Assembly: GCA_050084515.1 (NCBI GenBank)
Contig: CM114271.1
Coordinates: 49,414,001 to 49,478,000, forward strand
Length of the DNA: 64,000 nucleotides
Direction: 5' to 3'
DNA from: Blasia pusilla
Taxonomy: Eukaryota
Positions 621 to 61,870 of the stretch are shown one piece after another. The position numbers and the translations under genes are program-made. The first letter of the stretch is position 1. The number at the start of each line of letters is the position of its first letter. A model generated the notes under the pieces. That model ran no database searches. It was not told the DNA's origin and saw only the letters and a list, made by a program, of their open reading frames with translations.

Positions 621-2956
621 GTGGAGGCCACACATATGCACTAATGATCATGTGGACCTAGGGGGGATGAAGGCTTCAACAAGCTTGTAAATGGAAATGC
701 CAAACATTTCTCTAGCTGATGCAATCCACTTATCAAATGTTGAATTAGATCTAGCCTCTATAGAATTATATTTACGACTAGTGAAGAACTGGGTGAAAGT
801 TCCAAAGACAACGATGAGATCAGAAGTAACTCTCATAGTGAGTAAGGAAGTGCATTTTGTAATACACTAATAAGCTTAATCTATCTAGATCAAATCAAAT
901 GCATGATCCAAGTATGATAAGAGTTGGCTATGAATATTTTGATGGTGATGGTGATGGTTCAAGGTCTTGTGTATGTCTTTATAATGAGGTATATGGATTA
1001 ATCAACCTAATGTTGCTATAATCTAATCTTCATCACAAATTGCTAATTTGAAGTTATGGGCATACCTTTGCTTATGCAAGAAGTATCTGACTTTTTGTGG
1101 AAAGCTATTGTGACGTGGGTTTTTATTTCAGGATGCAGATTAATTATAGAGTCAAGTGGGGTTGAAGAGTCGAATAGTGGAGATAATCTAACCACTTTTG
1201 GATCCAAATTTTGTACAAATGATGTAGGAACAATATTGTTGGAGGAGGCAAACATAGAGTACTTCAAGCTGAGAGAGTGAGAGCAACAACACGTCTCCTT
1301 GTTGCCAAGTGGAGATTTGAATCACCTTAGATCTCATGAAAAATGTCATCATTCTAGTTATTTAACATTGTATTCTATGTTAGTGAATAGATGTTCCGAA
1401 TACTTCCATGAGTTTTTCTGCCATTAAGGAGTTTCATATCCCTAGATTGTTTGCTCTTTCCTTGGGCATCTAAAGTATTATTATCTTACATAGTGTTTTG
1501 TAGGTCAATTTTTCTAAAAGAGATACTTAAAGCGAAAGCAACTTTAGTATATGCTAGAAGAAGGTTACATACATCAACACTTAAAGTCCATTTCATTCGC
1601 CAACGGTGCTTACAATTAAAGATGGATCAATTTGGGTCTTCACATGGTGAAGCCAATCTCTTTACATGTTACATTCTTAATGAAATCTTATCTAATAATA
1701 TATTCTTTTGTTTAGCAAGGCCAGTTCCTCCAAGTTGGGTTCCAATTGGAAACTTGTATCCACCCCACCCATCACAGGGATTCAATGTACCAAAACCTAC
1801 TCATGATCACCCATCAAAAGAAGCTCATGAGTGGAGAGACCAGCAAACCCGCTTGGTAAGTTTGCAGTTATAGATCAATACCTGACACAATGATTTGAAA
1901 TTCTGGACGCATCCATTCTTACCCATAAGAAATCCTCTTGTCTATAGATTTTATAGCTTTATCTAACTTCTCATTTGTTTGTTGTAGACTCATATGTCAA
2001 GAGTATGCATCACAAGAATATTATACCTAATTAAGATACCGATGTAGTCTCCATAATGGAAAATATCCAATCTGCGTGTAGCTATGATATCTCTTGGGGA
2101 TTTTACACCTGAGATTTGGCTTTAATATTGGCTTTCACGATTATTGATCAATGCACACATGTGTTTTTTTATATAGAGTTGTACGACAACTTTGACCCAT
2201 AGGATATATGCCATGGAGAAAGAAAGCGCATTAACAAAGACGGATATTTTTTATATCAAGGAGAACATTGCTCATATGATGGCAATGTTGTCAAAGATGA
2301 CTCAAGTGGTGCCTGAAAACACCACTAGTCCTCATCCAAAAGTGGTAGTTCCAACTCCATCCCCTTATTTCCCTTCCATGTGTTTCCAAGGATGTGAATC
2401 GTTCCTTGGCATCAAAATCAAAAGAAAATCCAGGAGACCCTGATATGGATTTAAAAGGAGATTCTAGAGGTAATCCGAGTCCTTTTTTTTATTGATGATG
2501 TCGAGAGCAATGTGGAGGTGATAAAGAAGAGTACAATTGAGCCAATTGTTTCCCATGCTTATAGTCTTACAATAGAGATAACTAGCCAAGATGTTGAAGT
2601 TCTAGAGCTTATGAACAATAAGACAAATGCTTCGAAGAAAAAGAAAAAAAGGAAGCAATCTTCACTCAATGAGAGGAGAGAGAAGAACATTGTAAGTAAT
2701 TGATTTTGATGTCTATTGCTTAATCATTTCCTTGTATACACATTGAAGAAATTCAGGAATATTGATTTGAAGTGATTTGGCTTTGGAGAAGTTTTTGGAA
2801 GGTGCATTCTCGATTCCTATATACTCATACAATATTCCCCACAATGGTTGGAGTATTGTGAAGGTAACTATTTAAGATAAATTTTGTAGTGTGGCTTGGC
2901 TGAATTTGCAAATACGGTATAACAATTAATTCATGTATGTGTGGTCATGCATGCAG

Positions 2957-3220
2957 TTCACAGTAGGGGACGAGATGTTTCTTTCAAAGAGTCGTAAAGG
3001 TTGGGAACATGTGGTAGTGGGAAAGATCTCCGACATTGCAGGAAGAGATAAATATCATGGTAGCTTGATACCCTTGGGATGTGTAAAGGTGGATGTGGTC
3101 ACAGTGCATGATCCAAAATCCAAACTACAATATCTCAACCATGATGATGATCCCCCACAAACCTAGTTTGTGCACTAGGTTCCTAAAATTTTGTGGCCAT
3201 AGAGATCATTGAAAAATTTG
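2957..3220 (+). pseudogene. CACTA Tnp1/En/Spm-like (TnpA-associated) domain exon
   Basis: VGDEMFL...VVVGKISDIAGRDKYHGSLIPLGCVKVDVVTVHDPKSKLQY...DDDPPQT, preceded by a TGCAG acceptor. Paralogous to 60359-60634. Confidence 0.65.
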
Positions 3221-32539: not shown

Positions 32540-34458
32540 ATTAGGAGAAAATAATGAAAGCCTTATATGCCTATGTTTGGAGGCATATTGGACCCAGGTG
32601 AATTAGGTAAGAGCATGCCAGCCATTTAGGCACTGAGCTAGGTAGGGGAGGTTGAAGGAATGAGGGTTGCTTTACATTGGGAAGCAAGGTAGGCATTGTG
32701 AGTCGGGAGGAGTCATGAGGAAAGTAGGTTATGAGCAAAGACGGGCTCCAAGAAGCTAGGGACTCCTATATAGGGCACAGGGTTGGTATAGGTATGTATG
32801 TAAGGTGGTGTAGAGTTGGGAATACCTGAGGTCAAGCAAACATTAAGAGAGCCACTTGACATGAGAGTATGGTGTAGCCAAGAGAGAGTCAAATGATGGA
32901 GTACACAAACAACCCTTTTGCCCATAGGACGGCAAGATGGTATGATAGGGAAACGTGCAGCGGAGATGGAAGAGAGAGCCATGATAGAGGAGTTGGGATA
33001 AGGCAAATTGGACATGGTGAAGTCCATGTGATGTTTTACTAGAGGGTAGATGTGTGTGGTTCAAGTGAAGCCACGCTCTCAATCAGGGTCATGATATATT
33101 GTAGAGTTGGGAATACCCAAGATCAAGTAGATAGTAGTAGAGCCAATTGACTTGAGACCATGGTGTAGCTAGGAGGGAGTTAAATAAAGGAGTAGACAAA
33201 ATAAACTCTTTTCCGCACGTGCAAAGGGCGGTGAGATGGTCTCATAGGGAAACATACAACCAAGATGGAAGAGAGTGCCATAATAATGGAGTTGGGGTAA
33301 GGAAGATTAGACATGGTGAAGGCCATATGATGTATTCATCTGCTACTAGAGGTAGTTTTATGTGCTTCAAGTGAAGCTACTCAGTCAATCAGGGTCATGA
33401 TGTGGTAGGATTAAACACGTAACCTCCAAGGTGATAAGAGGTAGGTTGGAGGGATTCCTTGGAGATTTCATGTCTTGGTGTTGGTTGTTATGGATCATGA
33501 TTGGTGGTGAGATGGAACAACCCATTGAGGGTGGTTGATTGAGTGTTCAACTTGTTAGTACTTTGCTAAGTTTGGGTGGGATGGATGTTCTGCATGGCTG
33601 GTCTACAATGGAGTGCTCGAGGTGGAGACACACATGATGATGCCGACAAATAATACATATATGCTAACGAGAGGTTTGACCTGCTATTTGACCATAAACC
33701 CTTTGGATTGCGCTCATCATCTCTAGTTGGGAAATGGTTTGTCTTTAGCTACTCCGATTCTCTATTGTAGGCAACAAAGCTCCATAGCTTTGCATCGTGC
33801 CCATGCTAATGGGCTTTTGCGGTGGGCTTAGGCTTAGGCTTTGGGAGATGTTGGCGCTAGAGGCCTACTTAATGGTAGTCATGGCTCTCAAGGTATTGTT
33901 GATATTGTCTCTACTATTGATGAGTCTATCCGGTAAGAGGGGGGTGTCCCTTTTTCTTTTCCTAGGATGTTGTGGCCTTCACGTACTCAACTCTTTGAGT
34001 CACCCTCTATTGTACTCCAAATAGGTTTTCCATCATCTAATTTTATTGAGGCTTCACATATTCCTGTTTGAGGATATTTTAGTGTGGTGGAGGTTGTTGC
34101 ACCACATGGATCATTTAGTGTTAATCATGCACTAACGTGATAGCACGTGTGTTCAGGTAATTCATTTGAGTCCCTTTTCCCAAACTTATCTCCTCTCATT
34201 GAGGGCCTTGGATATTGGGTAGAGCTAATGCTAGATTGGTGTAGCAATGGTGTTGAGTGAAGACTCCTTATGCATGAAGTACATGTATCTGTGGGTATAG
34301 GGTGATTTTGAGTAGGGATCACGTATATGACCTGAGAGATTGTCCATAGTTTAAGTGAGCTATTATAGGAGGCTTAAGATGAGCCTGATTGGTTGAGTGT
34401 GTATGAGGTCAAGTGTGTCATCATGTGATTAGCGATAGCATAGGTGAGCTTGTGAGGA
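32540..34458. repeat. Decayed repeat-derived sequence with ~290-bp tandem duplication (32811-33095 / 33102-33401); insertion site of the MULE
   Basis: Both units start TAGAGTTGGGAATACC and end TCAATCAGGGTCATGAT. Similar sequence resumes after 47138. Confidence 0.55.
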
Positions 34459-34867
34459 GGTGCGGTAAGAGGAGAGGAAGAGAGGAAGAGAGGAAGAGAG
34501 GAGAGAGGAGAGAGGAAACTAGGGTCAAACGAAATAGATACTTTTTTTTGAAGAGAGTTTCTGTTGGGTTGAAGAGAGGAAAATTTTGTTTGAAATTTTT
34601 TGCACTTTTTTGTTCATATATTAAGCAGTCCCACAATTTTTTTTTCCTCTTCCATATTTTGGCAACCCCTCTGAGTCCGACAAGTTGCAAATTGCACAAA
34701 ATTTAGAAAACTGAAAGAATCAGTGGAATCATAAGTGTGGAACCAATCACTTTTTCCATCAAGGTCTGGAAAAAATCTGTCATTTGCCCGGGGCTGAATA
34801 GAGTTCAAGCTCAAAGTGAAGGTTGAGAAAAAAAAAGAAGTACAATCTAAAACCTCATTTTGCATCC

Positions 34868-37800
34868 TCAAAGTGGTTTGTTTAAAATACTTCGAACTTC
34901 TTTGAGGGACAGAATTGGTTGGTGGATTCCTACTCCTACCTCCGACTCTCTTAAAACTACCAGCAACACATAGTACATGTGCTTACAAGGGAAATACCTT
35001 TTTCCACTTGTCTCTCTTTGGACAAAGTCATCACATGAACATGTGGGAAAGCAACAGATGTGCACCACATACACCCTTGTGACACTTGAATTTACAGTGT
35101 TGTTCCTAACCCAATACATCCTTCCTATTCCATTGCCACTCAAGACATCTTTCATGGCGATGATATCCATTTTTGCCTCCCGAGCTAATGCAATTCGCTT
35201 TGCTCTCTCCACCGTTGGCCTGCACATTTTGTTTCTCTTCACCCCATTTCTAGACTCAAACAGAAATAATGGATTGAGATCATCCACCTTCTCCGGGTAC
35301 ATGTTGACATCAATCTTGGGTTGAATACGAAATGCGAAGGTCTCTGTAATGCGAACATGCTCCAAACTTCCCCCGTCTACGAGTCTGAAACTGGCACTTG
35401 TAAGATTGTCCACTTCGTCTTGAGTGCAGTTCGTGCCTGCGGCGATGGGCCAAATCGTGGGGGTATTCCCGGGAGCTCTAATGGTAGCCGGATAAGACTT
35501 CCGGAAAGCGCAAGATTCATTTGGGCAGAAGAAGTACTTCAATTGATCCCCGGTCCTCGTGAAACGATCAAAGGTTTTGAGTCCCCAAAACCCAGGCAGT
35601 GGTCGTCCAATCCTTGTACAGTTCTTATTTAGGAAAGTGCCGCATGCTCTCCTAATGCCATCAGATCCTGCCCTGCAGGTGGGTCCACGTCCTGGGTTGC
35701 TCCGAGATATATGCCACCGTTTTAGGTTGCAATCCACCTCCATTACCGGAATCCCATATTGTTGAACCACCCTAGTGACAGGATGTTGCGAACTTCCAAC
35801 AACGGAGGGCTTTTGAAATAAAACATTCACTGATTTTGGAGAAGTAACTCCGTCACAGATTTGGGACGGGTCCGGAGTCCCCGAATACCTAGGCGGTGTA
35901 ATTTCCTCATCCAAATCAATCACCGGATTCGTTCTGGATCTTTGCCTCTTCACCGCCTGAAGTCAAGATACTTATATGGTCTCCACGAGTCTCGTTCGGA
36001 TTGCTCTACCACCATTTGTATGGGGACGTCTTGAAACCCGCCACGAATATCCCCACCTATGTGTACGTCTTCCTCGAGTGGAGTTCCACTACGCGACCGG
36101 TTGAAGGCTTCGACATACAATTTTTATCACCAGATCTCATAGTCATACGACATAGAGCTCGAGATCGGCGACCCTTTTCCTTTTGTTATGCCTTTTGTGA
36201 GGAAGATATGGGATCTGCAGGTAGCATTGCTCTTGCCTGGTCTTGTTGGCATGCCTCCACAAGTGAAATTCGTTGGCATGCTTGTGACAACCTCCAAGAG
36301 GAATGAACACTTTCTGCTCCACTTGTGTTGGGGTAGAGGGCATTTTCATGAACGTTCAATCCCTGCAACGACGGCAATGTTAGAAGGGAACGAAAATAAC
36401 TCAGGAGTCAAAGAAATAAGTGACTTGTCGAAACCAGATGGGTTGTAGGCCCGAGATATCCTATGAACGACTCTACGACCCGTTGGGTCCCGACGTGTTG
36501 TAACCTTAAACCCACCTATTGCAACCCGTCGGAACCGGACGGGTTGCAAGGCCGAGGCATCCCATGAACGACTCTGTGACCCGTCGCGTCCCGACGGGTT
36601 GCACACTCGGGTTGCACCAAACATCTGGATGCAACCCGTCGGTTTCCGTCGGGTTGCACACTCGGATAACCCGTCGCATCCGACATCTTGCTTGGTTTCT
36701 TCCGTTTGAAATCCATATAATTCCCACGCTTCTCACCCTGAGCTACAACTTTACAAAAAATTCTCAGCGTGAGCTTGACAAGACAAAATAGTGAACTCAC
36801 CTGCCGCATGAAGTTTCCCCATTGTCTCATAATGCAGTCCACCAACTCAACCAAGAGCACAACTCTTTGTACTTCCCCTCAATCGCATGCTTCCTCCACC
36901 ACCCATGAAGTTCTTCCTGGCATTCCATGGCCTGCTTCAAGGTTTTGCTGTCCTTGCAGCGTTGGAGTAGAGTGACATGCTCTGTCCTCTTATTCTCCTT
37001 GATGCAAGATTTGGTGTACCGGGTCACAAACTGTTGCCAATGGAAAGCATCCAACCTTTCCCTCTCCGCTTGAACCTCTCCACCCCAGAACACTTCCCGG
37101 ATAGCAATCCACCCAGGTTGTGCATTGTCTGCCATGAACCCATAAATTTCCAGAGGTGGCCTTTTGTTTTCCTTCACCACCTCCAATAAGAGTAACCAGC
37201 ACATCTTCAAACTGCCAACGTCTTCTGCCTTTACTTCACAGATAAATATAGTTTTGAGTCCCTTCTCCACATGGTCATAAACGTGAGCACCCATTGTCAA
37301 CCATCCGTTCAACACTCTGTAGCAAATATCAAAGCTTACCCAGCTCCCATAAAGATCTTCCCCTTCCCTCATTCGATCTATAAGATCGAGGCCACTCGAC
37401 GGACCTGTGGTTGACATTTTGAAGACATAGGCCCTGGATCCCTCGCCTCCTTGGCCCATGAACTACCATCTCTGAATGAATGGAAATCTGGAGTTGGCCT
37501 TGATTCGGCGATGGCATCCATTTCGGCCGTCTTTCCATCGTAACTCGATTTGACGCAAATTCGGAAGCATTCGGGATCAGCGAGAAATGCGAGATTCTCC
37601 GCAGTTGTTTCTCCTCAACGCCGTGATGTCACCCCGCCCAGGATTCCAAGCAATTTTTCACAAATTTGTGATGCCGTTGTAGAGCTTGATCACTCCGGCT
37701 TTGAACCCGGAGAGTTTCAGAGACCTCGGCTACTTTCTTCGCCACATCCTCTTTGATGTGTCTTTGAATTGCATCGTTACAGGATGAGTGTGGGAGCCAA

Positions 37801-38791
37801 CATGGACCCGACCTTGTATACTCGACGTGGAGCCCAAGTCGTGGACAATGAAAAATATGTATGCAGGACCGCTCCAACGCAGAAGGGAGATGCCGACAAT
37901 GAGGACATCGATGGCCTCCCGGCGTATGGTGGCACCGACCTCGTATGGAGTTTCTGCATTCTTGGGAGGGAATTGCGGACGTATTGACTCGCCGTTGCGC
38001 TCTAGATACGGGCATGCTTTGGACTTCTACACTCCAAGGCTCCCACGCATTGGCGGCGGGAGACAATCCAGGACCATCTGGAATTGAAGCATGGTCCGTT
38101 GAAGCTGCACCATCGATGACAATCGACTTTTCGTCCCATACCCTTCAGCGCCCTCCATCCTTCTTTTGAGCAGAGCAGCAAGTGGAGGCAACTCAAAAAT
38201 GCAATTACCATCGTACGTGGGCGGCAGCTCGTCGACAAGAATGTGCTTGAACATTTTCAAGGCCAGAGACGAAAGCAAACTATTGCCTGATACTCGCAAG
38301 AGGAAGGAGTAGGCGGACAGAGGGCCCGATTGGTGTCCGACAGATCCACTGAGGTTGATAACATCCGGAATCTCTTCACGAAGAATAACATTGTTACGAG
38401 CGTGCGAAGTTGGAGTCGAAGCCGGATCTGCAGAGCTTGGAGTTGCAAACGTAGAGCTCGGAGCACTAGGAAATTCTAGACCGTCTACTTGGGAAACAGA
38501 CGAATTCACGGGCAAGCCGTAAACTCTGTATTGACCATTTGGTAGAGGTAGGAGATTCCATACTTTACGGTCTGAGGTCACTCGCTGGACCGTCTCACCT
38601 ATTATGTCTTCCGTATCGTCCACCCTAACATCTTTGGATACAAAGATGGTTCCAATTTGGAGAAGAAATTGAACAGACAGAAAATTTTCATCTACTACTA
38701 TGAAAGACTCACGAGCTTGGGGTCGAATGATTTCTGATTGAGGAAGGGCCGCCAGATGATTGCCACAAGTGAGCTTAACATAATTATCCAT
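34868..38791 (-). pseudogene. MULE transposase (GCM-like DBD, DDE core, C-terminal SWIM finger), spliced, frameshifted
   Basis: GCM-like CVGALEC...HVGSHTHP (37781-37804). DDE motifs WVSFDICYR, GFMADNA, DAFHW (CxxH position) and PNTSGAESVH. SWIM CSCDDF...PCKHMYYV. Intron 36800 (GTGAGT) to 36363 (TTGCAG); stop at 34868. Confidence 0.88.
36425..36690. repeat. Palindrome array 1 (transposase intron)
   Basis: GCAACCCGTCGG.n.CCGACGGGTTGC-like units starting at 36521, 36576 and 36631, plus degenerate copies. Confidence 0.9.
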
Positions 38792-38817
38792 TCCAAGAAG
38801 ATTCCAACCGGAGGAGA

Positions 38818-38848
38818 CTGAGAATGAGAATGAGAATGAGAATGAGAA
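38818..38848. repeat. (GAGAAT)5 microsatellite forming the pyrimidine tract of a putative 5'-UTR intron acceptor of the transposase
   Basis: Minus strand reads (ATTCTC)n-AG ending at 38818. Candidate donor CAG|GTAATT at 39051. Confidence 0.55.
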
Positions 38849-39018
38849 TTTTTAATTTATAGTGAATAGGAAACAGATACTCCTGACAGATTTTTACTGA
38901 CAAGATGAATTCGGTGGGTGATATTGTCTGACACAATGGATCCAATTCTGTAACACATTCAATTCTGTTGCAATATGTTATCGGATTTGGGAAGCAGAGG
39001 GTTGCGCATCACACTTGG

Positions 39019-39733
39019 AACCCGTCGGAGTCCTGGTAACTAAAAAATTACCTGAACCTAACCGAAGCCTGCAACCCGTCGGCATCGGACGGGTTGCACG
39101 CTTCTGTTAAACATTGTCGAAGCGAGCAACCCTTCACTCTCCGACGAGTTGCTCGAATACCGCTCCTTCTTGCCCGAAGATGCCGGAGGCGTGCAAACCG
39201 TCTGTTCCCAACGAGTTCCGCGGGTGCCTCACATTTTAGCCCAAAGACTGCGAGGCGTGCAACCCGTCGCCCTCCAATGGGTTGCGCAAGGGCCTCGCCT
39301 TGTGGTGCATCCAGCCAGACTCTGACGACTTGCACGGGAAGCCCTCGTTCTTAACCCTTGATGAGGGAAGCGTGCAACCCAACGGTCTCCGACGGATTGC
39401 CCAAGATACGTCCCGTTCCCGTCCCAAACACGGCGGAGGCGCGGAACATGTCGGTCTCCGACGGGTTGCACGGGTACCTCGCATTCTTTTCCAAAGACGA
39501 CGGAGGCGCTCAACCCGTCGGTCTCCGACGGGTTGCTCGCGCACGTGGCGACGTACCCAGGATGGTGGAGGTGCGCAACATGTCGGTCTCCGACGGGTTG
39601 CGCGGGTACCTCGCGTTCTTTTCCGAAGACGACGGAGGCGCTCAACCCGTCGGTCTCTGACGGGTTGCTCGCGTACGTGGCAACGTACCCAGGATGGCGG
39701 AGCCGCGCAACCTATTGGACTCTGACGGGTTGC
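39019..39733. repeat. Palindrome array 2 (divergent promoter region), ~66-bp period
   Basis: Units start at 39071, 39126, 39193, 39259, 39307, 39374, 39443, 39510, 39575, 39642 and 39707. A higher-order ~132-bp dimer is repeated at 39443-39706. Confidence 0.92.
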
Positions 39734-39810
39734 CATTTTTCACGTCCGGACTTCCGTAACATCCGGCACGTCGCCGTCGAAAGGACGACGGGACCCAACG
39801 GCTAGAAAAG

Positions 39811-39818
39811 TATAAATA
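39811..39818 (+). promoter_or_regulatory. Putative TATA box of the ParB-MTase gene
   Basis: TATAAATA in GC-rich context, ~80 bp downstream of array 2 and ~300 bp upstream of ATG 40110. Confidence 0.5.
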
Positions 39819-41312
39819 GGACAGAAATCGCTCAATTCCGGTTTCTCATTTCGCGATCTTCATTCCTCACTCTCCCGCGCAGCAGCTGATCAGATACGAA
39901 GGGGCATTTCACACGGCGACACATCGCGAGTCGATAGGAGGGAATGAGAGCGAGACCGTTCGACTGAACGACAGCGAGACGGTTCGACTGAGCGATCGCG
40001 GGACGATTGGAGCTACCCATCAAGGCGATTCGAGATCCCATCTTGACATCAGCAAGGCGATTGATCAAGGGATTCGTTGTGGACATACGTGGAGGCATTT
40101 CCGGAAAAAATGACGAGGAAAAAATCACAAGCCAACAAGTCTGGGAGCTTCACTCCGAAGTCCATTAGGACTCCTGTGTCAGCTTCTCCTGGGCCTCGTT
40201 TGGCAAATGAAATTAGGCAGCAGGAAATCAAGGAGCGGGAAAGGGAAGCAGAGATGCACAACCAAGTGCTTCTTGCGAGACGTGTTCAAGAGGCGCTAGA
40301 TAAACAGAACGCAGAGGCTGAGACGTCGCAGGCCTTGACGAAAAGGATCGCCGATGAAAAGAGAGAAAAGAAGCATCTGGACGCGTCGGTGAGGAGGGAA
40401 GAATTGGCTAAAGTGAGGAGGGAAAAAGCGATAGCCATTGACGATAGCCTAGTCCGTCCAACCGCAAGTGTTGAGATGCGGGAAATGTCCCCCACGAAGT
40501 CCGGGGACACAATCAACATAGTGGAAACGCCAAAAGTTGAAATCGATGACGACGAGGTCATGAGGACCGCCAGCGTGGAGATGGTGGACATGGCCGAAGA
40601 AGCCGGAGAGCGGTCATTCTCGACTCCAAGCCCGGCGGAGGACATCGACCTCTATCAGATCGACGAGTTCCTAGTCGATTTGCCAGCTTCTGTCTCAGAC
40701 AAGTTAGCTGGTCAAGAAACCGACCCCATTTTCGAGCGGGTAAGAGAGGATCTGGGTTTTTTGAATTATGTGAATTGCAATTCATTGGGAATTCAGTGTA
40801 GCTTATTCATCTTGTCCGGTTCGACGGTGGTAAAGCGGATGGCACTCATAGAGGGCCACAACGCCCGAGGATTCCACTCGATTGCGGACAATGGAATACG
40901 TCCGCGAAACTCGATCCGAGCGAGGACATCGCGAAGCTTAAACAATCGCGGCAACAACATCCTCGTCGTGACTTTCCTCCCTTCTATGTTCAACCTTACG
41001 ACGAGCATGGAACCCAAGCTCTAGTTCTGAGGAGGACTTGGAAAAGCTCGACACATTCGGAGGATGCGAGACCAGGATTTCAGAAGGCAAGTTGAGGGCA
41101 TGGAATTCATTTGGATGAGGAATCTGCATTTCTTCATCCGGGATGGAAATCACGGAGTTCATGGCGTGGACCAAGTTTGCGGAGGAGCGGCCCAACTCAT
41201 TGGAGGCACATTTCTGCGTGAAGGCAGTGGTCCTTCACCCATTCCCTCATCACATGGTGATAGTGGAGATGGCAATGCATGCCATGAACACGTGAGTATC
41301 TTTAACACTTAC

Positions 41313-41930
41313 GCAACTCGTCGGACTCCGACGAGTTGCTCGATTGATGAATGGGTTAGGTTTGTTTTTGCCGAAAGCAACTCGTCGGACTCCGACGGGT
41401 TGCTCGACTGCATGCTTTTTCGGATGTTTTTTTAAGAATGCAACTCGTCGGACTCCGACGAGTTGTTTGATTGACCATAGATTTAACTAGTTTTTGGCCC
41501 AAAGCAAACCGTCGGAGTCCGACGGGTTGCTCGACAGGCCGCCTTGTCAGGATGTTTTTTGAAGAATGCAACTCGTCGGACTCCGACGACTCCGACGGGT
41601 TGATTTCAGCCAAAAACAGTTTCGAGGCAAGCAACCCGCCGGACTCCGACGGGTTGCTTTGGGGAAAAGACCTTCTAAACGTGCAGTCACTCGAACAACT
41701 CGTCGGAGTCCGACGAGTTGCATTCTTCAAAAAACATCCTGACAAGGCGGCCTGTCGAGCAACCCGTTAGACTCCGACGGTTTTCTTACCATGCATTAGC
41801 GAATCTGAATGCAATCCGTCAGACTCCGACGGGTTGCATCATTTAGCTCGTTGCTAGAATCCGACCTTGAGCTGTGACGACCCGTCGGACTCCGACGGGT
41901 TGCAGGAACCCATGTAATTTCCTGACGGGT
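41313..41930. repeat. Palindrome array 3 (intron 1 of ParB-MTase), 63-64-bp period
   Basis: 27-bp units start at 41313, 41377, 41440, 41504, 41568, 41631, 41695, 41759, 41811 and 41877. Spacers are mostly 36-37 bp. Confidence 0.95.
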
Positions 41931-44060
41931 TGAGTTTGGATGTGCAGGATTGTATCGGAGGGGAATGTCACCCACCACTGGATCCAAGACTGCGATCGGG
42001 TGAGGAAGGTGCTACGACGCACCGGGAGAGTCTGAGGGGTTCTTGGGCGATGCCCTTGTCAATCAGATGCTTGCAAAGGGTGGTCAGATTAAAAAGAAAA
42101 CTTGGGCAAATAAGTTTATTTCCCAAGATGCAGCCATAACCATCCTTTGCTGGTCGAAGATACAGGCCGCGAAGAAAAGCGCTGCACTGGAGCTGGAGCG
42201 GAGGGAGAAGGTATCTGCGTCTAAGCGCGCCAAATTCATCAAGCTGCAGATGTCTGCGAACGAAAATACACGGGCGAGCAAGATGCAGCGATACATCAGC
42301 ATTCTCAACCCCAAACTTGGTCCGGAGTTCTACAAGGAGCTGAAGGCGATTATCAAGCGCCAACGGAAAAGGGATGAAGATCCGCATGGTCGGATTGGGG
42401 AGAAAGTGTCCCTGGATCGCGTGCATCGGTTTGCGTTGTTCGGGATAAGCGAGTTTAGGAGGATATGACTGATGAAAATCAGTCTCGAGGGCTCAGAGGC
42501 CCAGAAGAGGGCGGCACACCATCCTCCGGGTGTGTCCGATCCAGTGATCTCACACTGGCTACGCGAATGGTCGTTCTGGGACGCGTTGCGGGTAATCGGG
42601 AAGTCCGTGCTGGACGGTCTGCAAGCGGAGCTCAGAAGATTAGAGCCCATCCCGCCGGAAGCAAACCTTGAAAGTTCTGGAGATTTCGAGGTTTGGCTCG
42701 ACGACATCCGGGACAAGCCAACCAAAAACCGAGGATTCAAGACCATGTTCAAGGTTTGCGTCCTCCCTCAGGCAGAGATTGACGAAGAAGTAGAGGGGAA
42801 CAAACGGGATCAAGCGAAGAAGAAGCGACATCTAGAGGAGCAGACGGACGATTCTGTTTGACTAAAAGCTGCCCAACGGATGGTCTTCAAGTACTTCGTC
42901 CAGTGTAAGAATGCAGGTACGTGGGGAAAATTACCGGTAGCCTTGAAATTGTGGGCCGCGCCGGATGCAGAGACATTCTCCATGTACGACATGGAGATGG
43001 GGCAAAGCACATGTCCGATTGGGAGGTGGAGAATTGCCCCATTTGGCTCGACTTCAACGACCCTGAAGACATCATCGATAAGGATTTACGAGTGCTTCAT
43101 GATGCAATGGCCTCAGGACAAGACGATATCCCCAATTTCGTCCAGCCTGAAGACTTCTTTGGAGGAGATGCAGAAGAGCAGGCCCACGAGACAACTGAGT
43201 TGGCTTCCAAGGTCCGCACAGCCAAAGACAAATCCACAGCGGGTCTCAAAGGCAAGGCGAGGGGAGGGAAAAATTCAGAGGTCGAGTCTTCCCAAAGAGA
43301 GGCTGAAGATTCAAGGCAGAGGCAGAATCGTCCGAACAAGCGGGGAGAGAGGGTCGGACCAAGTCCTCGGCGAAAAAAATGCCACCAGAGTCTGAGGTCA
43401 TAGAAACCCCGACAAGCCGTCCCCAGGCTAGGGAGAAGCGGAAGCGAGAGGTGCCCGGGTTGTCCCAAGGAGAATACAGTCCATCATCCTTGGGAAGACA
43501 CAGACAAACAATGACCCGGACAAGCGTCCTCCTTCAGTTCACTCCTTTATTGGATGAGCTGAAGAGCTTCAGTTCTCAAGCGTCGACACCAGCCATCAAA
43601 AAATTGACAACGCTGGGACGGAAGCTCCAACAAAACGGGCACGCTGCCTGGACGGTGAATGGAATGGTCGAAGAGGTTGCGGTGGATCTCTTGATCGCCG
43701 ATCTGCCCTCGGGGTTGCGACTTTGGGGCGAGAATCCGTCGGACGAGGTACTTGAGAGGAATGTGCCGCTCTCTTATGACCAGATTGCGCTTTTGTTCTC
43801 CTTTGCAGACGCCTATCTGAGTAACATGGGCTGCTTCTTGGTGTTGATTGGAGGGAGCGAGGACGAGCTCTTCAACCTCCAGTGCGTCAAGAGGTTGCTA
43901 AAGTGGAGGACGGCGCAATCGTGGATCATTAAAAACGAGTACCCACTCCGATCCGCGACGAGTCAGATTTGGGTAAGGCTCAATTCCTGTACTATAATTT
44001 CAATTATATTTTAAAGATGTGTATAATGAGAGTCAATCTGGGTTTTTTTTTTGTCCGTGA

Positions 44061-44390
44061 GCAACCCGTCGGGTTCCAACGGGTTGCATCTTTCCCACAT
44101 ACACAGGGAAAACCGCAGTGTACCTGCAACCCGTCAGAACCCGACGGGTTGTAGTTGCTTTTGGTTTTTCCCAGTTGATTTTGGTTTTTGGATGCAACCC
44201 GTCTGATAGCGACGGGTTGCTCTCAGCCGACCATGGGCTGCTCTAGGCCAGCAACCCATCGCCTTCCGACGGGTTGCTCACGGACAAAAACAACGGAGCC
44301 CGACGGGTTGTTTTTGTCCCTGACCAACCCGTCGGAAGGCGACGGGTTGGTTCGGGACAAAACAACCCGTCGGACTCCGACAGGTTGATC
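44061..44390. repeat. Palindrome array 4 (intron 2 of ParB-MTase)
   Basis: Units at 44061, 44126, 44194, 44251, 44324 and 44362, plus a partial copy near 44290. Confidence 0.9.
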
Positions 44391-45239
44391 CAAAGTCAGT
44401 TATTGAAAATGTTCTCAAGCCGACTTCTTTAGTTGCCGACATTGTTTCCAACGTGCTGATTTACAGATGGACCACTCCTACGTCTACTGCTTTGTTCGGC
44501 CCGAGCACAATTTCCAGGTGTTCAAGATCCAGGATCCTGTGGATCCATGCTCAGATGGGTACAACTTAGATAGTTTGTACAATTCCCCCCCGGGAATTTA
44601 CATGCAAGACAGTACCCCACTTCTGGGAGGAAGGGAAAAGTCGCCGACCACGATGCAAACGCTCATCGAGCTCTGCTCAAGGCCGGGTGACTTGGTGTTC
44701 GACTTAGTGGGACTTTCAGGGGCAAGTATCAAAGGCGCCTGGCAGAGTGGCAGGAATTGTTTGACCTTTGCAAGGAGGCAAAGGCAGAATACGAAAGGCT
44801 CGTTGGGGCGTACAACGGCCTTGAGCAGAGCTCATAGAGCTCTGCTCAAGGCCGGGTGACTTGGTGTTCGACTTAGTGGGACTTTCAGGGGCAAGTATCA
44901 AAGGCGCCTGGCAGAGTGGCAGGAACATTCTCTGCCTCGAGGGAAGGCAGGAACTGTTTGACCTTTGCAAGGAGGCAAAGGCAGAATACGAAAGGCTCGT
45001 TGGGGCGTACAACTCTCCACCGAAGCCGACAGGTCCGGTTCTAGACCCACCATTGGTTGTGACTCCATCGTCACTTCCAACGATTCCAAAAATTGGGAGG
45101 GCAAGGTCGAAAGTAATTTTGCAAGAGCTCTCAGACGATGACGAGTGAGTTCAAAGAACTCAACGACCCAGCTTGACTGCAGCGTTTGGAGTAGGGAGTT
45201 TTTTGATAATGAGGCAAAAGATTTCATAGAATAGATCAA

Positions 45240-46490
45240 ATGTACAGTTCCGAGCTTTTTTCGGATGATATAAAGGAGAAGATTTTTTCGAACGATGGTG
45301 GTGCTTGTAAAAGTTTGCTGAACATTTTTTATGGCATTCCGAATGTGATCGTCTATGTACTCCGCGGACTTCAATTTTGCAACCCGTCGGATTTCTCTTG
45401 CTTGCAACTTTTAACTTTTTGACCACAGCAATCTGGTGTCCAACGGATGGTCTTCAGGTACCTCGTCCAGTGTAAGAATGCAGGTACGTGGGGAAAATTA
45501 TTGGTAGCCTTGAAATTGTGGGCTTCGCCGCCGGATGCAGAGACATTCTCCATGTACGACATGGAGATGGGGCAGCACATGTCCGATTGGGAGGTGGAGA
45601 ATTGCCCCATTTGCATATCAGGCAACCTGTCGGATTCCGACAGGTTGCCTGATCAGACTCTTTCCCTGTTGGTCCAACTTAAGAGTCAGTCTGACGGGAT
45701 TCTTCCCTTGGCACCTTCCCCTCAACTCGTAAAGGCAGGCGAGGCTTCTTTTCTTCTCTCAGACGTGTTGGATTCCTACTACCTGTGCGATTGCCATCAT
45801 GGTATTACCAAGGACGGAGCACATATTGATACTTGATGGGTGTCACATTGCAGAGCATACAAGGTATACTGCCGAGGAAGGCGGTGGGACTCAAATCAGG
45901 TTACATGGGACCGTTATGGCGTACCTAGGGGGGGGCCAAGGCTCTCGAATTCGCCAACATTTTCGATCCCCGTCTACAATCGGCCAGAGAAGCCACTTGT
46001 ATCCCAGGACATTCCTTTTGTACTGTCACCGAGGAGAGTTAGGAGTAAATTGGTAGATGACGAGGCTGAAGAAATCATAGACTAGGTCAATTATACATTT
46101 CCGAGGTTCCTTCGGAGGTAATAAAGGACGAGATTTTTTCAACCCATAATGGTGTTTGTAAAAGTTTGCTGAAATATTTTGTTGGACTTGTGGATTGTGT
46201 TCTTTTAGCTACTCAGAATTACAATTTTGCAACCCGTATGATTCCGACGGGTTGCAACTTTTTGCTTTTTGCCCACTGCAACTTTTTTACCACTTCCAGG
46301 CAAGTTGTCGGGTTCTGACAGGTTGACTGCTTGAGTGATCGGACTCTTTCCCCGTGAGACCAACTTCTGACGCATTGTGGCGGGCTTCTTAACGTTTGGC
46401 TCGTTCCCCTACATTCGTCAAACCAATTGTAGGCTTCTTTTCTTGTCTAAGATGTGCAGGATTCCTACTACCTGTCGGATTGCCATTTTG
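45240..46490 (+). repeat. Diverged ~0.85-kb-period duplication in the 3' region of the element, with palindrome copies and an inserted copy of 42872-43045
   Basis: 45270-45430 resembles 46120-46280 and 45620-45797 resembles 46298-46486. 45440-45613 is near-identical to 42872-43045. Confidence 0.75.
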
Positions 46491-49400
46491 GATTCCCAAC
46501 CCGTTAGATCGTCGTGGGTGCAGGGTGGAAGAAAATCACTTCTAAAAATCTTCCCTTTCTTATGGTGAGCTTTCTTACGGGTTGGGAGGGGTGCAACTTC
46601 TCGGTTTCTCAGGCTTAGGATCTGAATGAAGAGACATCAGTTCCTCTTTACTCCAAACAACTAACAATCTTTTGGTTCAATTATCCTCTCATGTGTTCAG
46701 AAAGTTGGTTATGGGGCAATTCAGGGGAGGCCATGCTGCAGGCAACAATCCTGCAAAAAGAGAGGTTGGCATCCGGGTGATCCTCAAACAAAACTACCCA
46801 TGGGCACTGCTTATTGTAGACCGAGATAGGCAATGTTAAGAAACTTAGGCTCACATGGAGAGTGATGGAAAAATGTTTGTAGTGGTCTTATGATGTCTAC
46901 TTTTTTTTCGCCCCCAAGAAAAAGGAGGTTTTTTTAGGGCCAAATGTGGACCACTACCTACTCTCTTCTAAAGATTTCCTGAATTTGAAAGCAAACAAAA
47001 ATTTCAAATATGTCAAAAAGTTTTGAAGAGAGGAGGCGGATTTGGCCCTTTTTTTTTAAGAGAGACTCTCCTCTCTTCCTCTCTTCCTCTCCTCTCTTAC
47101 TCTCTCCTGCCAGAATACCAGCCCCCGCTTGTGAGGAGTCCGGAAGAGTCTTGGTAAGTTAGAGTGGTTGAGCGTGTGAGGCAAAGTTGCCATCACAAAA
47201 TTTTCCTAAGGTTTGAAAGAATAAGATGGTTCAAGTAGTGGTAGTGGTATCACGAGTGGGAGAAAGGTATAAAGGGGTTTTGAGTGAGAAACCATCCCGA
47301 ATTTCATCTATGGTTGTGTGATGCATACCTTTGCAGAACTTTAGAAAAAATTGGGAATTTCATATGAGGAATAGGTCATTTTTTTACATTTTGACATGGT
47401 AGAAGTATAGAGGACGAGGAATTGGAAAGCAAGGAGTAGTAGCTATATGGAATGGTTTCCAAGGATAGGATGAAGAAGTTGAAGAAGATGGGGACTCATC
47501 CTAGAGGAATGAAGAAATATAGAAAGAACACACTTCAAAGAGGCAAGGAAAAAAAGAATACAAAGACGAAGATTTAAGATGTGTTCAACATAAGTCCTTT
47601 TCCAAAAGAAGATTTAAATTGTGAAGACTCTATACAATTGATGAAGAAAGTATGAAATATCAGAACAAAGAACTTAAATGAAGATTCAAGAAGTTCTTAA
47701 AGGAATAATACTATATGTGCTTACAAAGAAGAACAAAGATCTTTTGTCTTTGTAACGTAGACTTTTAGAATACGAAAAAGAGGTACTGAAAAGACATTCT
47801 TCGCGAAGACTAAAGATCTTTGTTATTAACGAAGACTTCAAGAAGCTCAAAGATTGTTTTAGATAGGGAAGAGGTAGCTAGGAAAGAAAAGACAGAAGGG
47901 TTGCGAAAGAAGATCAAAAGGTGTACAATGTTCAGAAAGAATAGAACAGTTAAACCAATATATTCAATAAGATTACCAGAAGATCAAGATAGACCATTGA
48001 TTAGATGGTTTGCAAGGTTCAAGAAACCTCTTGGTAAGAAGATTCATTTTATCTCTCAAGAGAGGATCTTATGGAAAATAGTATGTAAGAAGACTCAAAG
48101 AAGGAAAAAACATCATCCGAGTAAGAGTATAGTTATGCTGCGAAAATGATCCGAGTTGAGGAGAAAGTAGCCTATGAAGCTTATACACCAATAGAGCCAT
48201 TGTGTCTTTAATGAAATAGAGAGTATTCCATTTTTGCATTATGAAGTGCGGAAATATCTCTTTTATATTCTATTGGGTCTGTAGAATGTGAGAAATGTAC
48301 AAAGAGGAATTCTTGAGAAGAGGGAATGTGCAATGTGTATGATGTATGAGATCTGTTAGATAGAGAGTAATATGCCAAGACAGATTGAAATTCGATAATA
48401 GGGAGATCCGTCTACGCATTATGATCTCTTTCAGGTTCCCTCTTGTGAATGAGGAGTCCAATTTTTGAGGATATAATTCTATTTTCACTTGAGAAGATAT
48501 TTTTCTGTGGAATTCGATATGCTTCTTTATGAGAGGATGAGTCAGCAAACAGGAATTATCTAAAGAGTCAACAGAGACCTGCGAGATTAACTAAAATTTA
48601 ATTTCTGGGGAAAATCTATCTTTTCAGAGATAGGAGTGATCCTTTGGTGGAACGAACTATCTATGTAATTATAAAACACTAAATTTGGCAATTATTGATA
48701 CATTACAAGTTGGATCATTATTATTGGACATCAATTCTAGTTACGACATCACATACAAAGACAATGAGATTTGGAGAGAGATGACCAACATGAGCCATAC
48801 GAGCATGTGTCGTTTCTTGAGTGCAATAGGGATCATTGACTTAGATAATTTCATGTAGGATTTTGATATGTGGCGTGATTTCCAAGAGATACGTACCCAT
48901 ACGCAATTCAACTCTTTCATCACATTGAAGGGTTTTTTCCATCATTTAGAGAGACCTCCAATGGATGATTATTGTGAGTTTTGATCATTACTTGGTGTAC
49001 ATATCAATGCCTTAAGAGTATATTAGGCTCCAGGATATGTGTCCACTAGTGGTCATGAGGCATATGATGGGATAGTGATAGCAATTACGCCCATATCATC
49101 AATCCAAGGACTAGATGAAGATGATAGGAGTGACGGCGGTGAAGCTACATAGACCTTAGATAATCGAGCGCACCTAATTTTAGTTCTACACTAGAGTTCT
49201 TTCAAGATTTGGGGAGAAGCTACCAAGACATGGGTACCAACAAGCTGAAGAATCTATATGAGTTTCAGTTGAGATTGGGTGAGAATCTATGGGAGGCATT
49301 CATACACATACAAAAATTGATCATTGCTATTCATAGAGTGATTGACGCACATGCATTTTAGTATTGGTACAAGGTTTAGGATTGAGAGTGGCAAATGAGA

Positions 49401-57049: not shown

Positions 57050-57307
57050 GAGTGAGTCATGGAATATAACTTGCAAATGACCAAGTCATTTGTGTTATTA
57101 TTCGAGTCATTGATTTATGACTATTTTGGTTTTTTATGTCATATTAAATTATTGGACCAATTGAGTTATACTTTCAATCATTGATTTATGACTATTTCGG
57201 TTTTCTAGGTCATATTAAATGACTAGACCAATAGAGTCATACTTTCAGTCATTTTGTGCATTAGTCATTCATAATAGAGTCATAAAAACCATAGTTTTCT
57301 TCTAGTG
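57050..57307 (+). mobile_element. CACTA 3' terminus with ATGAC/GAGTCAT subterminal repeats
   Basis: Dense GAGTCAT/ATGACT repeats ending TTTTCTTCTAGTG at 57307, nearly the same terminus as at 4491. Confidence 0.7.
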
Positions 57308-60634: not shown

Positions 60635-61870
60635 GATCTTTGGATTTGGTGGTTTTCATAAATGTTTAAACTTTCACAATGATTCCATTAGATCATTTGT
60701 TTTTAGTTTGGTTTCCATATGCTCTTCATTCCTTCTTGCAGCTTGCTGAGATGGAAATACTTTGATTCTTCCATACAATGAATCATGTATTTTTGGGTTT
60801 CATCAATTAGAGAATGGTTTGATTGTGATGTATCTGGAGTTTTCAGCATTCATTGTAATTGGCATGTACCCTATGATTACTTGCTTGATATATGTCCCTC
60901 TTCTAGACCTTCAGATTCAATTCTTTTCTATCCTCACCATTGTCTATGCTACTCAGGCTCACACATTACTCCTTGCTGGATCTGAGAGAGTCTCTACTTA
61001 TGTTAAGAGGGTTATGTTACTTAGATGACCACCACTTACTTACCAAAGTAACTCCTTTGATTTAACAAACTCCGAGAGGAACAATGGCAATCTGTGAACA
61101 ATACATGATCTAGTAATAAACCACAGCTTATAGTGTTGTGTGAATGACTAATACAATATGCCAAATAGCTCAGACGACCAAATATCATTTAGTGGTTAAA
61201 ATATGAGTAATGCACTCATGATTTAGGTTGTTATCTTAGGGACGTCATCATTCATCGCTCAACTACTCTAGGCTGTAGCTAGGAGAAGGTCTTAAGAATC
61301 TTTTTCAGGGTCAGTGAATGAATGACTTGTAATGTGTTTTTCAGCCTTTTGACCATTTGGGTCGCACGGGCTTGATCTATTTATCATTTACCATAATAAC
61401 TCATAGAGTCAATGTAATGACTCAAATGGTTAGGAAATATGACTTGTATAGTCATGTAAAGCATGAGATAAATGACTCAAACCATCCCAATGATTCAAAC
61501 GGTCAAAAAATATGACTCGTACAATCATGAATGACATGAGATAAATGACTCAAACCATCAATAAAATGTCTCACGATTACACCACACATAGGGTGACTAA
61601 ATAGTCAAGGGATGTTAAAACGGGAAACTGGGGAACTAATGCTTTCCCAACCAGCCAAACTGTCGTTTAGTGAGTTATTGGTGAACAAGTTTCCCATAGG
61701 GTGATCTTTGACACCCCTATCATTTCCGGTAATGCCAGTCCGTGAAAATTTCCGTTCCATTTTCGTATGAAGTGTCTCTTTCTACAAAGGAGACAATAAA
61801 GTGATTAATGATCAAATAGCACTTCCGCTCCATACGAATTAGGCTAACTATAAGTTGCAGGTGACTGAGG

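What the first reader, a model, noticed from the sequence alone, without database searches (positions are those of the whole stretch)
41313..41903. CRISPR-like geometry in a eukaryotic intron: 27-bp palindromes with 36-37-bp spacers at a fixed 63-64-bp period
Start-to-start distances are 64, 63, 64, 64, 63, 64, 64 bp. The palindromes are nearly invariant, while the spacers have diverged considerably (two alternating spacer types) yet keep their length. Even the unit with a 9-bp internal duplication (41568) has a shortened next spacer that keeps the period. A 63-64-bp period is about six helical turns, so bound dimers would sit on one face of the helix. Inference: selection on both site and phasing, as for a cooperative protein-loading array.
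Basis: partly seen in the sequence, partly recalled or inferred. Interest (0 to 1): 0.8.

Follow-up and report, generated by a model that had tools for sequence, protein, structure and literature searches.

The report
Plant transposon with ParB-like loading sites
The repeat array is not CRISPR but one of several clusters of mirror-symmetric DNA sites inside a very abundant plant transposon that also encodes a protein shaped like the bacterial chromosome-partitioning clamp ParB, fused to a DNA-methylase-like domain, which suggests the transposon borrowed a bacterial load-and-spread device to control its own DNA.

Summary
The array is real: ten 27-bp palindromes, periods 64,63,64,64,63,64,64,52,66, in an intron confirmed by RNA reads. 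It is not CRISPR-like. It lies inside a 12.7-kb Mutator-like transposon (34457-47126, 9-bp target duplication; about 2,000-3,000 candidate copies). The same palindrome fills its other two array-bearing introns and its divergent promoter; 0 of 36 sites are in exons. The interrupted gene encodes a ParB-fold domain (DGNHR), a ParB-like helical DNA-binding region and an amino-methyltransferase-like domain with a degenerate catalytic motif. A liverwort homologue's model matches ParB, Noc and KorB best (Z 8-9). Between two subfamilies, palindromes differ at 1 of 162 positions and spacers at 20 of 171; ParB dN/dS is 0.04. Of 33 distinct relatives, 21 carry their own palindrome clusters. Best reading: parS-like loading sites for the element's ParB-like dimer, working like VANDAL/VANC anti-silencing by a VirB/KorB-type mechanism. 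Binding, nucleotide use and purpose are inferred, not shown. Helical phasing is supported in this array only, and decaying copies show no protection from CpG loss. My searches found no description of this element.

The parts
41313..41903 (.). The array: ten 27-bp palindromes, consensus GCAACYCGTCGG-A(C/G)T-CCGACGRGTTGC; inferred loading sites for the ParB-like protein
41292..41947 (+). Intron of the accessory gene (GT..AG, 656 nt) holding the array; falls right at the end of the ParB-fold domain
   Evidence: RNA joints in 3 of 3 raw runs; homology runs across the joint in Riccia proteins; spliced subfamily consensus has no stop
34457..47126 (.). Whole transposon, 12,670 bp, without long terminal inverted repeats; G-rich ends and GA-rich subterminal tracts. 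This copy is broken (22-28 stops in each frame of the joined accessory exons)
34448..34456 (+). Left 9-bp target-site duplication
   Evidence: 9/9 identical to 47127-47135; >=8/9 in 5 of 7 full-length copies
47127..47135 (+). Right 9-bp target-site duplication
40110..40770 (+). Accessory gene, first exon (charged, low-complexity N-terminus); 3' boundary approximate, not read-confirmed
40825..41291 (+). Accessory gene exon encoding the ParB/Srx-fold domain (V-R, WDGNHR, AMHxxN); frameshifted in this copy, open in sister copies; 5' boundary approximate
41948..43972 (+). Accessory gene exon: helical ParB-like DNA-binding region, further helical domain, linker, N-terminal half of the methyltransferase-like domain (ADLPSG)
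43973..44466 (+). Intron splitting the methyltransferase-like domain; holds a second palindrome array (44061-44388)
   Evidence: joint 43969-44466 in 2 reads in each of 3 runs (table 5c)
44467..45148 (+). Last exon: C-terminal half of the beta-class amino-methyltransferase-like domain; partly duplicated in this copy
   Evidence: PF01555 E=0.011 here, 0.0011 in a sister copy, 9e-6 to 5e-5 in Riccia homologues, all under the curated cut-off; M.RsrI E=0.018
39071..39733 (.). Promoter array: 11 palindromes between the divergent transposase and accessory genes, periods mostly 65-69
36801..38791 (-). Transposase exon 1 (Cys/His-rich N-terminal region, putative DDE core); frameshifted here
   Evidence: MULE Pfam not matched
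36363..36800 (-). Transposase intron holding a third array (36475-36657; periods 35, 46, 55/56 across copies)
   Evidence: RNA joint in 1, 4 and 7 reads
34868..36362 (-). Transposase exon 2 ending in a SWIM zinc finger
   Evidence: SWIM E=0.024, under cut-off
34662..34688 (.). Single palindrome about 200 bp inside the left end
45379..46326 (.). Four dispersed palindromes in the 3' non-coding region (45379, 45622, 46229, 46300)

Best explanation
The palindromes are parS-like binding and loading sites for a ParB-family protein encoded by the same transposon. Shown: the sites are confined to non-coding parts of the element, are under purifying selection, and accompany a conserved, transcribed, spliced gene whose product has a ParB N-terminal fold followed by a ParB-like helical DNA-binding region and a methyltransferase-like domain. 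Inferred: a dimer reads the dyad-symmetric site (about 70%). Inferred: nucleotide binding at the DGNHR pocket lets it close, leave the site and spread along the element like ParB, KorB or VirB, so the arrays act as high-throughput loading stations (about 55% given binding); which nucleotide cannot be predicted. Inferred: the spread coat, carrying a SAM-binding but probably weak or inactive methyltransferase domain, keeps the element's own copies transcribable against host 5mC silencing. That is the role VANC plays for VANDAL elements, with family-specific sites limiting the effect to cognate copies. Spacer lengths in steps of about 10 bp suggest neighbouring bound dimers interact.
For: Sites: 0 of 36 in exons that cover 58% of the element. 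All three internal arrays lie in read-confirmed introns. Palindromes differ at 1/162 positions against 20/171 for spacers, and position-specific variants are kept, so this is not simple homogenisation. Protein: model of Riccia homologue P0006 (139 sequences, 427 of 901 residues at pLDDT>=90). The top 13 VIA rows are ParB, Noc, KorB, PadC and pNOB8 ParB-like proteins (Z 7.2-9.2); B. subtilis ParB aligns 98 residues at rmsd 2.6; Myxococcus ParB aligns 193 of 194 residues across both domains at rmsd 7.6; the first unrelated fold is at Z 4.5. KorB tops the wide search of 48,161 chains (Z 7.9), and Spo0J residues 118-208 align to model 330-528 (Z 4.7, rmsd 2.9). D/G/N/H/R are 83-98% conserved, and the Box I-like Arg 88% and Box III-like Asn 94%. 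dN/dS between subfamilies S2 and S3: 0.04 ParB, 0.14 helical, 0.09 methyltransferase N-half. Relatives: 35 of 51 loci >=4 kb have >=4 copies of a palindrome within 1.5 kb, against 0 of 102 shuffles. After clustering, 21 of 33 distinct elements >=2.5 kb do (18 without three that are a 25-bp satellite), mostly upstream of the ParB exon, with many different sequences. Close pairs L105/L124 and L097/L129 share a motif; Mantel rho=0.21, P=0.018 over 16 elements. Precedent: VANC binds motifs in introns, intergenic and terminal regions of VANDAL (PMC5735166, passages); VirB is a ParB-like antisilencer that loads and slides (10.1101/2023.06.01.543266, abstract).
Against: No binding or activity was measured. 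The confident model is of a homologue about 31% identical to this family's ParB exon; the family's own exon folded poorly (pLDDT 39). Foldseek E-values are only 0.14 and above, and no ParB Pfam model is matched (only DUF1015, E=0.007). The helix-turn-helix assignment rests on Z 4.6-4.7 and on high-rmsd two-domain alignments. In 27 copies not chosen by the array, CG transitions are the same in arrays (5.9-7.3%) and exons (6.1%), so there is no trace of protection from 5mC. 12 of 33 relatives show no cluster, 8 of them with at least 1.8 kb upstream of the motif. 2 of 20 ordinary MULE loci also hold a five-palindrome cluster. Several relatives carry two or three different palindromes, and the protein-motif correlation is weak. 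The methyltransferase motif IV reads D-[LMI]-P-[ST] in 22 of 24 pattern matches, lacking the aromatic residue. Expression is low (204-330 reads per 10-12 million).
Confidence: 0.55

Rival explanations
1. Same protein and same sites, different purpose: the ParB-like coat tethers copies to one another or recruits the transposase, steering new insertions into old copies, or it represses the element as KorB does.
For: 19 of 38 element ends are flanked by the family's own DNA. 53 of the first 100 listed exact 25-mer sites, which span C1 1.5-34.7 Mb, lie within 8.0-11.5 Mb. There is no sign of reduced CG decay in arrays. KorB is the best wide structural match.
Against: Nesting can come from local or intramolecular transposition, and the loci were picked as best hits. 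The densest upstream clusters sit in the divergent promoter, which fits transcriptional control.
Confidence: 0.2
2. The palindromes are bound by the transposase, either for transpososome assembly in an element lacking terminal inverted repeats or for self-activation; the ParB-like gene is a passenger or acts without sequence specificity.
For: A Mutator transposase alone binds and activates cognate copies (10.64898/2026.08.24.746577, abstract and passages). 2 of 20 ordinary MULE loci have palindrome clusters. Some relatives carry more than one palindrome family.
Against: In that preprint AtMu1 transposase peaks lie at the terminal repeats. Here only 1 site is within 300 bp of an end and 31 of 36 are in internal arrays. 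The ParB-like gene is under strong purifying selection and has a DNA-binding-type region of a family that reads palindromes.
Confidence: 0.15
3. The sites matter as RNA hairpins or DNA cruciforms (splicing control, small-RNA decoys, recombination hot spots) rather than as protein sites on duplex DNA.
For: The intron folds strongly (z=-17). RNA reads cover the array. The array centre is rearranged and inverted between copies.
Against: The same site fills the promoter region, where RNA depth is near zero. The exact sequence, not just the symmetry, is conserved. Hairpins would not require sequence conservation, and any palindrome folds by construction.
Confidence: 0.06
4. Neutral minisatellite amplified and homogenised by slippage and template switching.
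For: After insertion, palindromes and spacers decay alike. Unit number varies from 5 to 15. Phasing is not significant on merged length classes.
Against: 21-fold lower divergence of palindromes between subfamily consensuses, with position-specific variants kept. Isolated copies of the site far from arrays, and exclusion from exons. Recurrence of different palindrome clusters at matching places in relatives.
Confidence: 0.03
5. CRISPR-like repeat-spacer array yielding guide RNAs.
For: Palindromic repeats of 27 bp with 36-37-bp spacers.
Against: Spacers recur, duplicate and invert within and between copies. No Rfam match, no phage match, no Cas domain in the scanned ORFs.
Confidence: 0.01

Closest known systems
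VANDAL elements with VANC anti-silencing proteins (Arabidopsis; PMC5735166 passages, PMC10398659 abstract)
   Same: Transposon with an accessory gene and tandemly amplified, family-specific motifs in introns, intergenic and terminal non-coding DNA; motifs diverge between families.
   Different: VANC motifs are 8-9-bp non-palindromic words, here 27-bp dyads. The accessory protein here is ParB-like plus methyltransferase-like. No loss of methylation was detectable from CG decay.
ParB-parS and its regulatory offshoots Noc, KorB (RK2), VirB (Shigella), BisD (ICEclc) (PMC12704722 passages and section 7; VirB abstract; KorB and BisD search listing only)
   Same: N-terminal ParB fold with GxxR-type motif followed by a helical DNA-binding region; clustered palindromic sites; a mobile element controlling its own genes.
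   Different: Eukaryotic nuclear DNA transposon; intron-split gene; no ParA gene seen; insertions in the fold; DGNHR in place of the canonical Box II; fused methyltransferase-like domain; nucleotide unknown.
Phage and prophage ParB-N6/N4-methyltransferase fusions (PMC12704722 section 7; PMC4738411 passages on ParB-terminase loci)
   Same: ParB fold and PF01555-type domain in one polypeptide; a plausible source by horizontal transfer (inference, no tree built).
   Different: About 600 extra residues with a DNA-binding-type region; degenerate motif IV; carried by a plant transposon with cognate site arrays.
Eukaryotic 4mC/6mA methyltransferases of bacterial origin: MpDN4MT1, rotifer N4CMT, DAM-carrying retrotransposons
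   Same: Amino-methyltransferase domain of prokaryotic type in a eukaryote; in retrotransposons, proposed to favour the element's activity.
   Different: MpDN4MT1 keeps TSPPY whereas this domain lacks the aromatic residue. The DAM elements are retrotransposons, and that preprint's main text never mentions ParB, Mutator or MULE.
CRISPR arrays
   Same: Repeat and spacer lengths only.
   Different: Shared, invertible spacers; no cas genes; intronic position in a transposon.

Membership tests
Mutator-like (MULE) transposon | 8-10-bp target-site duplication | tested here: met
   9-bp duplication at >=8/9 in 5 of 7 full-length copies
Mutator-like (MULE) transposon | MULE-type DDE domain (PF10551) by sequence | tested here: inconclusive
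   No Pfam match; hhalign to ordinary MULEs of this genome 3.6% with very shallow profiles; pairwise z>3 in 2 of 12 comparisons. A D..D..H..E pattern is seen by eye against a pattern recalled from memory
Mutator-like (MULE) transposon | C-terminal SWIM finger | tested here: inconclusive
   E=0.023-0.024, under the curated cut-off
Mutator-like (MULE) transposon | Long terminal inverted repeats (absent in non-TIR MULEs) | tested here: not met
   Ends share only G-rich termini and GA-rich tracts
VANDAL/VANC | Family-specific motif arrays in non-coding regions | tested here: met
VANDAL/VANC | Accessory protein homologous to VANC | tested here: inconclusive
   No direct comparison with VANC was run; Pfam scans and fold searches point to ParB instead
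VANDAL/VANC | Protein-induced loss of DNA methylation | not testable with these tools
   Only an indirect CG-decay test, which showed no difference
ParB/Srx superfamily | ParB N-terminal fold | tested here: met
   Homologue model: Z 8.8, rmsd 2.6 over 98 residues to 6sdk; 24 top rows are all ParB/Srx fold; feature hits to ParB_N clusters 0.92-0.94
ParB/Srx superfamily | Conserved Box II GxxR and flanking Arg/Asn | tested here: met
   G94%, N98%, H95%, R83%; upstream R88%; downstream N94%
ParB-parS clamp systems | Helix-turn-helix domain after the N-terminal fold | tested here: inconclusive
   Spo0J 118-208 Z 4.7, rmsd 2.9; two-domain alignments rmsd 7-8
ParB-parS clamp systems | Site-specific loading, CTP binding, sliding | not testable with these tools
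   Nucleotide specificity is not predictable from sequence (PMC12704722 passages)
ParB-parS clamp systems | Partner ParA ATPase | tested here: not met
   Only two genes in the element; no ParA domain in scanned ORFs
beta-class N4/N6 DNA methyltransferase | Motif order IV before I and PF01555 similarity | tested here: met
   (scores just under the curated cut-off)
beta-class N4/N6 DNA methyltransferase | Catalytic motif IV with PP and aromatic residue | tested here: not met
   D-[LMI]-P-[ST] in 22 of 24 pattern matches, DVPF in one fern protein; ADLPSG in this family
CRISPR array | Unique spacers of foreign origin | tested here: not met
CRISPR array | cas genes or known repeat family | tested here: not met

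The most novel reading that the evidence does not exclude
A widespread family of DNA transposons in seed-free land plants runs a complete bacterial-type nucleotide-gated sliding clamp inside the nucleus. A ParB-HTH-methyltransferase fusion loads at family-specific, helically phased parS-like arrays, spreads through chromatin over the 12-kb element, marks or shields it against 5mC silencing, and guides new insertions into coated copies, building clusters of thousands of elements.
Probability: 0.3. Interest if true: 0.95.

Novelty: categorically new. Interest (0 to 1): 0.86.

Why it matters
ParB clamps that load at palindromes and slide are known from bacterial chromosomes, plasmids and conjugative elements. 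Searches found none described in a eukaryotic transposon. Each half has a known analogue (VANDAL/VANC for the layout, ParB/KorB/VirB for the protein), so a strict reader may call it a new variant, but no known system joins them. If it works as inferred, it answers for this family the open VANC question of how a protein bound at short motifs affects a whole multi-kilobase element. It tests whether such a clamp can move through nucleosomes. It supplies many natural protein-palindrome pairs for specificity studies and epigenome tools. It may also explain the success of a family with thousands of candidate copies in a 390-Mb genome.

Tried and rejected
Protein search with the methyltransferase N-half found nothing. 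The fold of the family's own ParB exon from 7 near-identical sequences failed (pLDDT 39). PDB sequence searches with ParB alignments and P0107 found no credible hit. Homodimer prediction for homologue residues 160-655 gave no verdict (score 0.00, alignment not used, fold uncertain) and is not used either way. An apparent halving of CG decay in the array was an ascertainment artefact: those copies were chosen by similarity to the array, and it vanished in 27 copies chosen by exons. The S1 rows downstream of the helical region are invalid because that consensus has a frameshift; only S2 vs S3 is used. No indexed RNA holder was listed; three raw runs with the same species label were laid instead. 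A search of the own genome with a distant ParB relative returned only this family among the 150 scored (20 fetched, 78-92% protein identity where measurable, all with the same palindrome), so protein-motif divergence could not be tested within the genome. Profile and pairwise tests did not establish MULE homology. Earlier scan notes: none in three look-ups. Rows dropped before counts: 12 of 60 loci lacked a complete intron; spacers seen once, longer than 98 bp, or hiding a half-site were left out; 29 of 80 metagenome loci under 4 kb were left out and 7 of 40 clusters under 2.5 kb out; alignment columns under 75% local identity were skipped.

Full report
Observation. Ten 27-bp palindromes start between 41313 and 41877, with periods 64,63,64,64,63,64,64,52,66. 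The window holds 40 sites at >=17/24 matches against 0 in five shuffles. Palindromes are 0.85 identical pairwise and spacers 0.36. Three details of the finding fail. There are eight spacer types in nine spacers, one an inverted copy of another. The unit at 41568 is a 9-bp duplication followed by a 27-bp spacer type seen 25 times elsewhere, so it is not a compensation. And the period is not fixed.

Context. The same palindrome forms three more arrays (36475-36657, 39071-39733, 44061-44388) and five single sites, all within 34662-46326. Comparison with ten other copies defines a 12,670-bp element at 34457-47126, with a 9-bp target-site duplication in 5 of 7 full-length copies and no long terminal inverted repeats. 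Searches of the 390-Mb genome gave 1,979 candidates for the array region, 3,092 for the last exon and 924 exact matches to one 25-bp site variant against 0 for the control. The element has two divergent genes. RNA reads from three raw runs, mostly 90-95% alike and so from sister copies, show both transcribed at low level in the expected directions, and splice out 41292-41947, 36363-36800 and 43973-44466. Each of these introns holds an array, the fourth array lies in the shared promoter, and 0 of 36 sites fall in exons that cover 58% of the element. The window's copy is broken.

The minus-strand gene is a transposase by context: target duplication, weak SWIM finger (E=0.024), three full-length relatives. 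MULE homology was not established statistically, so 'Mutator-like' is provisional.

The plus-strand gene is the key. In intact copies the exon before the array reads WDGNHR...AMHAMN. It has 104 relatives at E<=0.001, and full-length Riccia proteins align across the splice joint and on to the C-terminus. A model of Riccia P0006 built from 139 sequences is confident over about residues 160-730. Its best structural matches are ParB of Caulobacter, Myxococcus and Bacillus, Noc, KorB, PadC and pNOB8 ParB-like proteins (Z 7.2-9.2), then sulfiredoxin and SerK; the first unrelated fold is at Z 4.5. KorB leads a search of 48,161 chains at Z 7.9, a value the tool calls middling, but ranks 1-5 are all ParB-fold proteins. 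Foldseek ranks the same proteins first with weak E-values (0.14 and above). Alignments run beyond the N-terminal fold into the DNA-binding domain (193 of 194 residues, rmsd 7.6; Spo0J 118-208 at rmsd 2.9), which suggests but does not prove a helix-turn-helix. The pocket residues are 83-98% conserved. The C-terminal domain resembles beta-class N4/N6 methyltransferases (PF01555 E=9e-6 to 1e-3, under the cut-off), but its motif IV lacks the aromatic residue in 22 of 24 matches. Both domains are under purifying selection between subfamilies S2 and S3 (dN/dS 0.04 and 0.09).

Selection on sites. Between subfamily consensuses, six orthologous palindromes differ at 1 of 162 positions and five spacers at 20 of 171 (P=1.4e-5). 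Position-specific variants persist, which argues against homogenisation. Subfamilies at 78-82% protein identity keep 20-21 of 24 consensus bases while most spacers fall to background similarity. After insertion, sites and spacers decay alike, and CG transitions equal those in exons (5.9-7.3% against 6.1%): dead copies are methylated like the rest, and there is no trace of protection.

Phasing. In 48 introns, periods group at 51-55, 63-66, 73-75 and 83-85, about 5, 6, 7 and 8 helical turns. 26 spacer types give R=0.53, P=0.0007 at 10.5 bp, with a best period of 10.3, but merged length classes give P=0.38. The transposase-intron array steps 35, 46, 55 (P=0.017 on four types); the promoter and methyltransferase-intron arrays are not phased at 10.5 bp. 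Phasing is therefore local and moderately supported. The array centre is shuffled and inverted between copies, as expected for template switching between symmetric sites (inference).

Relatives. 80 metagenome loci with the ParB-like exon fall into 40 clusters; 4 clusters show a related transposase upstream in divergent orientation. 35 of 51 loci >=4 kb carry a cluster of >=4 palindromes, against 0 of 102 shuffles and 0 of 6 flanking pieces of the window. By cluster it is 21 of 33, or 18 without three 25-bp satellites; 16 have the cluster upstream of the ParB motif. The sequences differ widely between elements and from the window's. L086 repeats the layout with far-upstream, promoter and downstream 51-bp-period sites. 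Closer proteins have somewhat closer motifs (rho=0.21, P=0.018). Against exclusivity: 12 of 33 lack a cluster, several have two motifs, and 2 of 20 ordinary MULE loci also have a cluster.

Mechanism. Most likely a dimer of the accessory protein recognises the dyad and, as ParB does (PMC12704722, passages), uses a nucleotide to close and spread, so that arrays in introns and promoter coat the element. The likeliest purpose is self-activation against host silencing, by analogy with VANC, which binds motifs in introns, intergenic and terminal regions (PMC5735166, passages), and with the ParB-like antisilencer VirB (abstract). All of these steps are inferred. Rivals are insertion targeting or repression by the same protein (19 of 38 ends abut the family's own DNA), transposase binding (10.64898/2026.08.24.746577, abstract and passages), RNA or cruciform structure, a neutral satellite, and CRISPR (rejected).

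Literature. Seen as passages: PMC5735166, PMC4738411, PMC10406627, 10.1101/2021.02.12.428880. Passages plus section 7: PMC12704722. Abstract plus passages: 10.64898/2026.08.24.746577, 10.64898/2026.05.21.726589. Abstract only: 10.1101/2023.06.01.543266, PMC10398659. Listing only: PMC11790492, PMC12409273, PMC9156397. ParB-methyltransferase fusions are described in phages, and a ParB-type HTH fused to a different methylase clade in chlorophytes and chytrids. Searches listed no paper whose title or abstract start describes a plant transposon with a ParB-like gene or palindrome arrays. The library lacks most subscription papers, and I read no supplements. The canonical methyltransferase and MULE motif patterns used for comparison are recalled, apart from TSPPY.

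Verdict. A real, selected feature; not CRISPR; part of an apparently undescribed transposon family pairing a ParB-like protein with its own palindromic site arrays. Interest 0.86.

Noticed in passing
ends of element copies in L021-L080, L161-L180: 19 of 38 distinct element ends are flanked by the family's own DNA, often an inverted internal piece: self-targeting or local transposition.
   Followed up: partly
G000:C1 8.0-11.5 Mb: 53 of the first 100 listed exact palindrome matches (spanning 1.5-34.7 Mb) fall in this interval; copies form dense islands.
   Followed up: no
L153:7229-7622 (also L158, L159): This relative's palindrome resembles the bacterial parS consensus as I recall it, with a two-base longer centre; possibly coincidence.
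   Followed up: no
L192, L193: Ordinary MULE loci of this genome with five copies of a different 21-bp palindrome 0.4-1.4 kb from the transposase core.
   Followed up: partly
window 41365-41880: RNA reads pile on the array itself with spacers unlike the window's (up to 29 reads at one joint): unspliced or intronic RNA from another subfamily.
   Followed up: no
window 45181-46486 and 45437-45613: The 3' non-coding region holds an internal duplication (about 70% identity), and this copy carries a 177-bp duplicate of exon sequence from near 42870.
   Followed up: no
L100:4835-6606, L157:20-1087, L160:15176-16080: A 25-bp AT-rich near-palindromic satellite lies beside three ParB-like loci.
   Followed up: no
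ParB-like exon, window 40825-41291: Nearest feature matches include fungal DUF3723 clusters (0.94-0.95), a domain mentioned in Starship papers (listing only); ParB-like genes may recur in eukaryotic mobile elements.
   Followed up: no
window 57107-57253 and 61416-61559: Two-copy tandem repeats of 71 and 73 bp outside the element.
   Followed up: no
P0052 (Adiantum): Fern homologue keeps an aromatic residue in methyltransferase motif IV (DVPF), the best candidate for catalytic activity.
   Followed up: no
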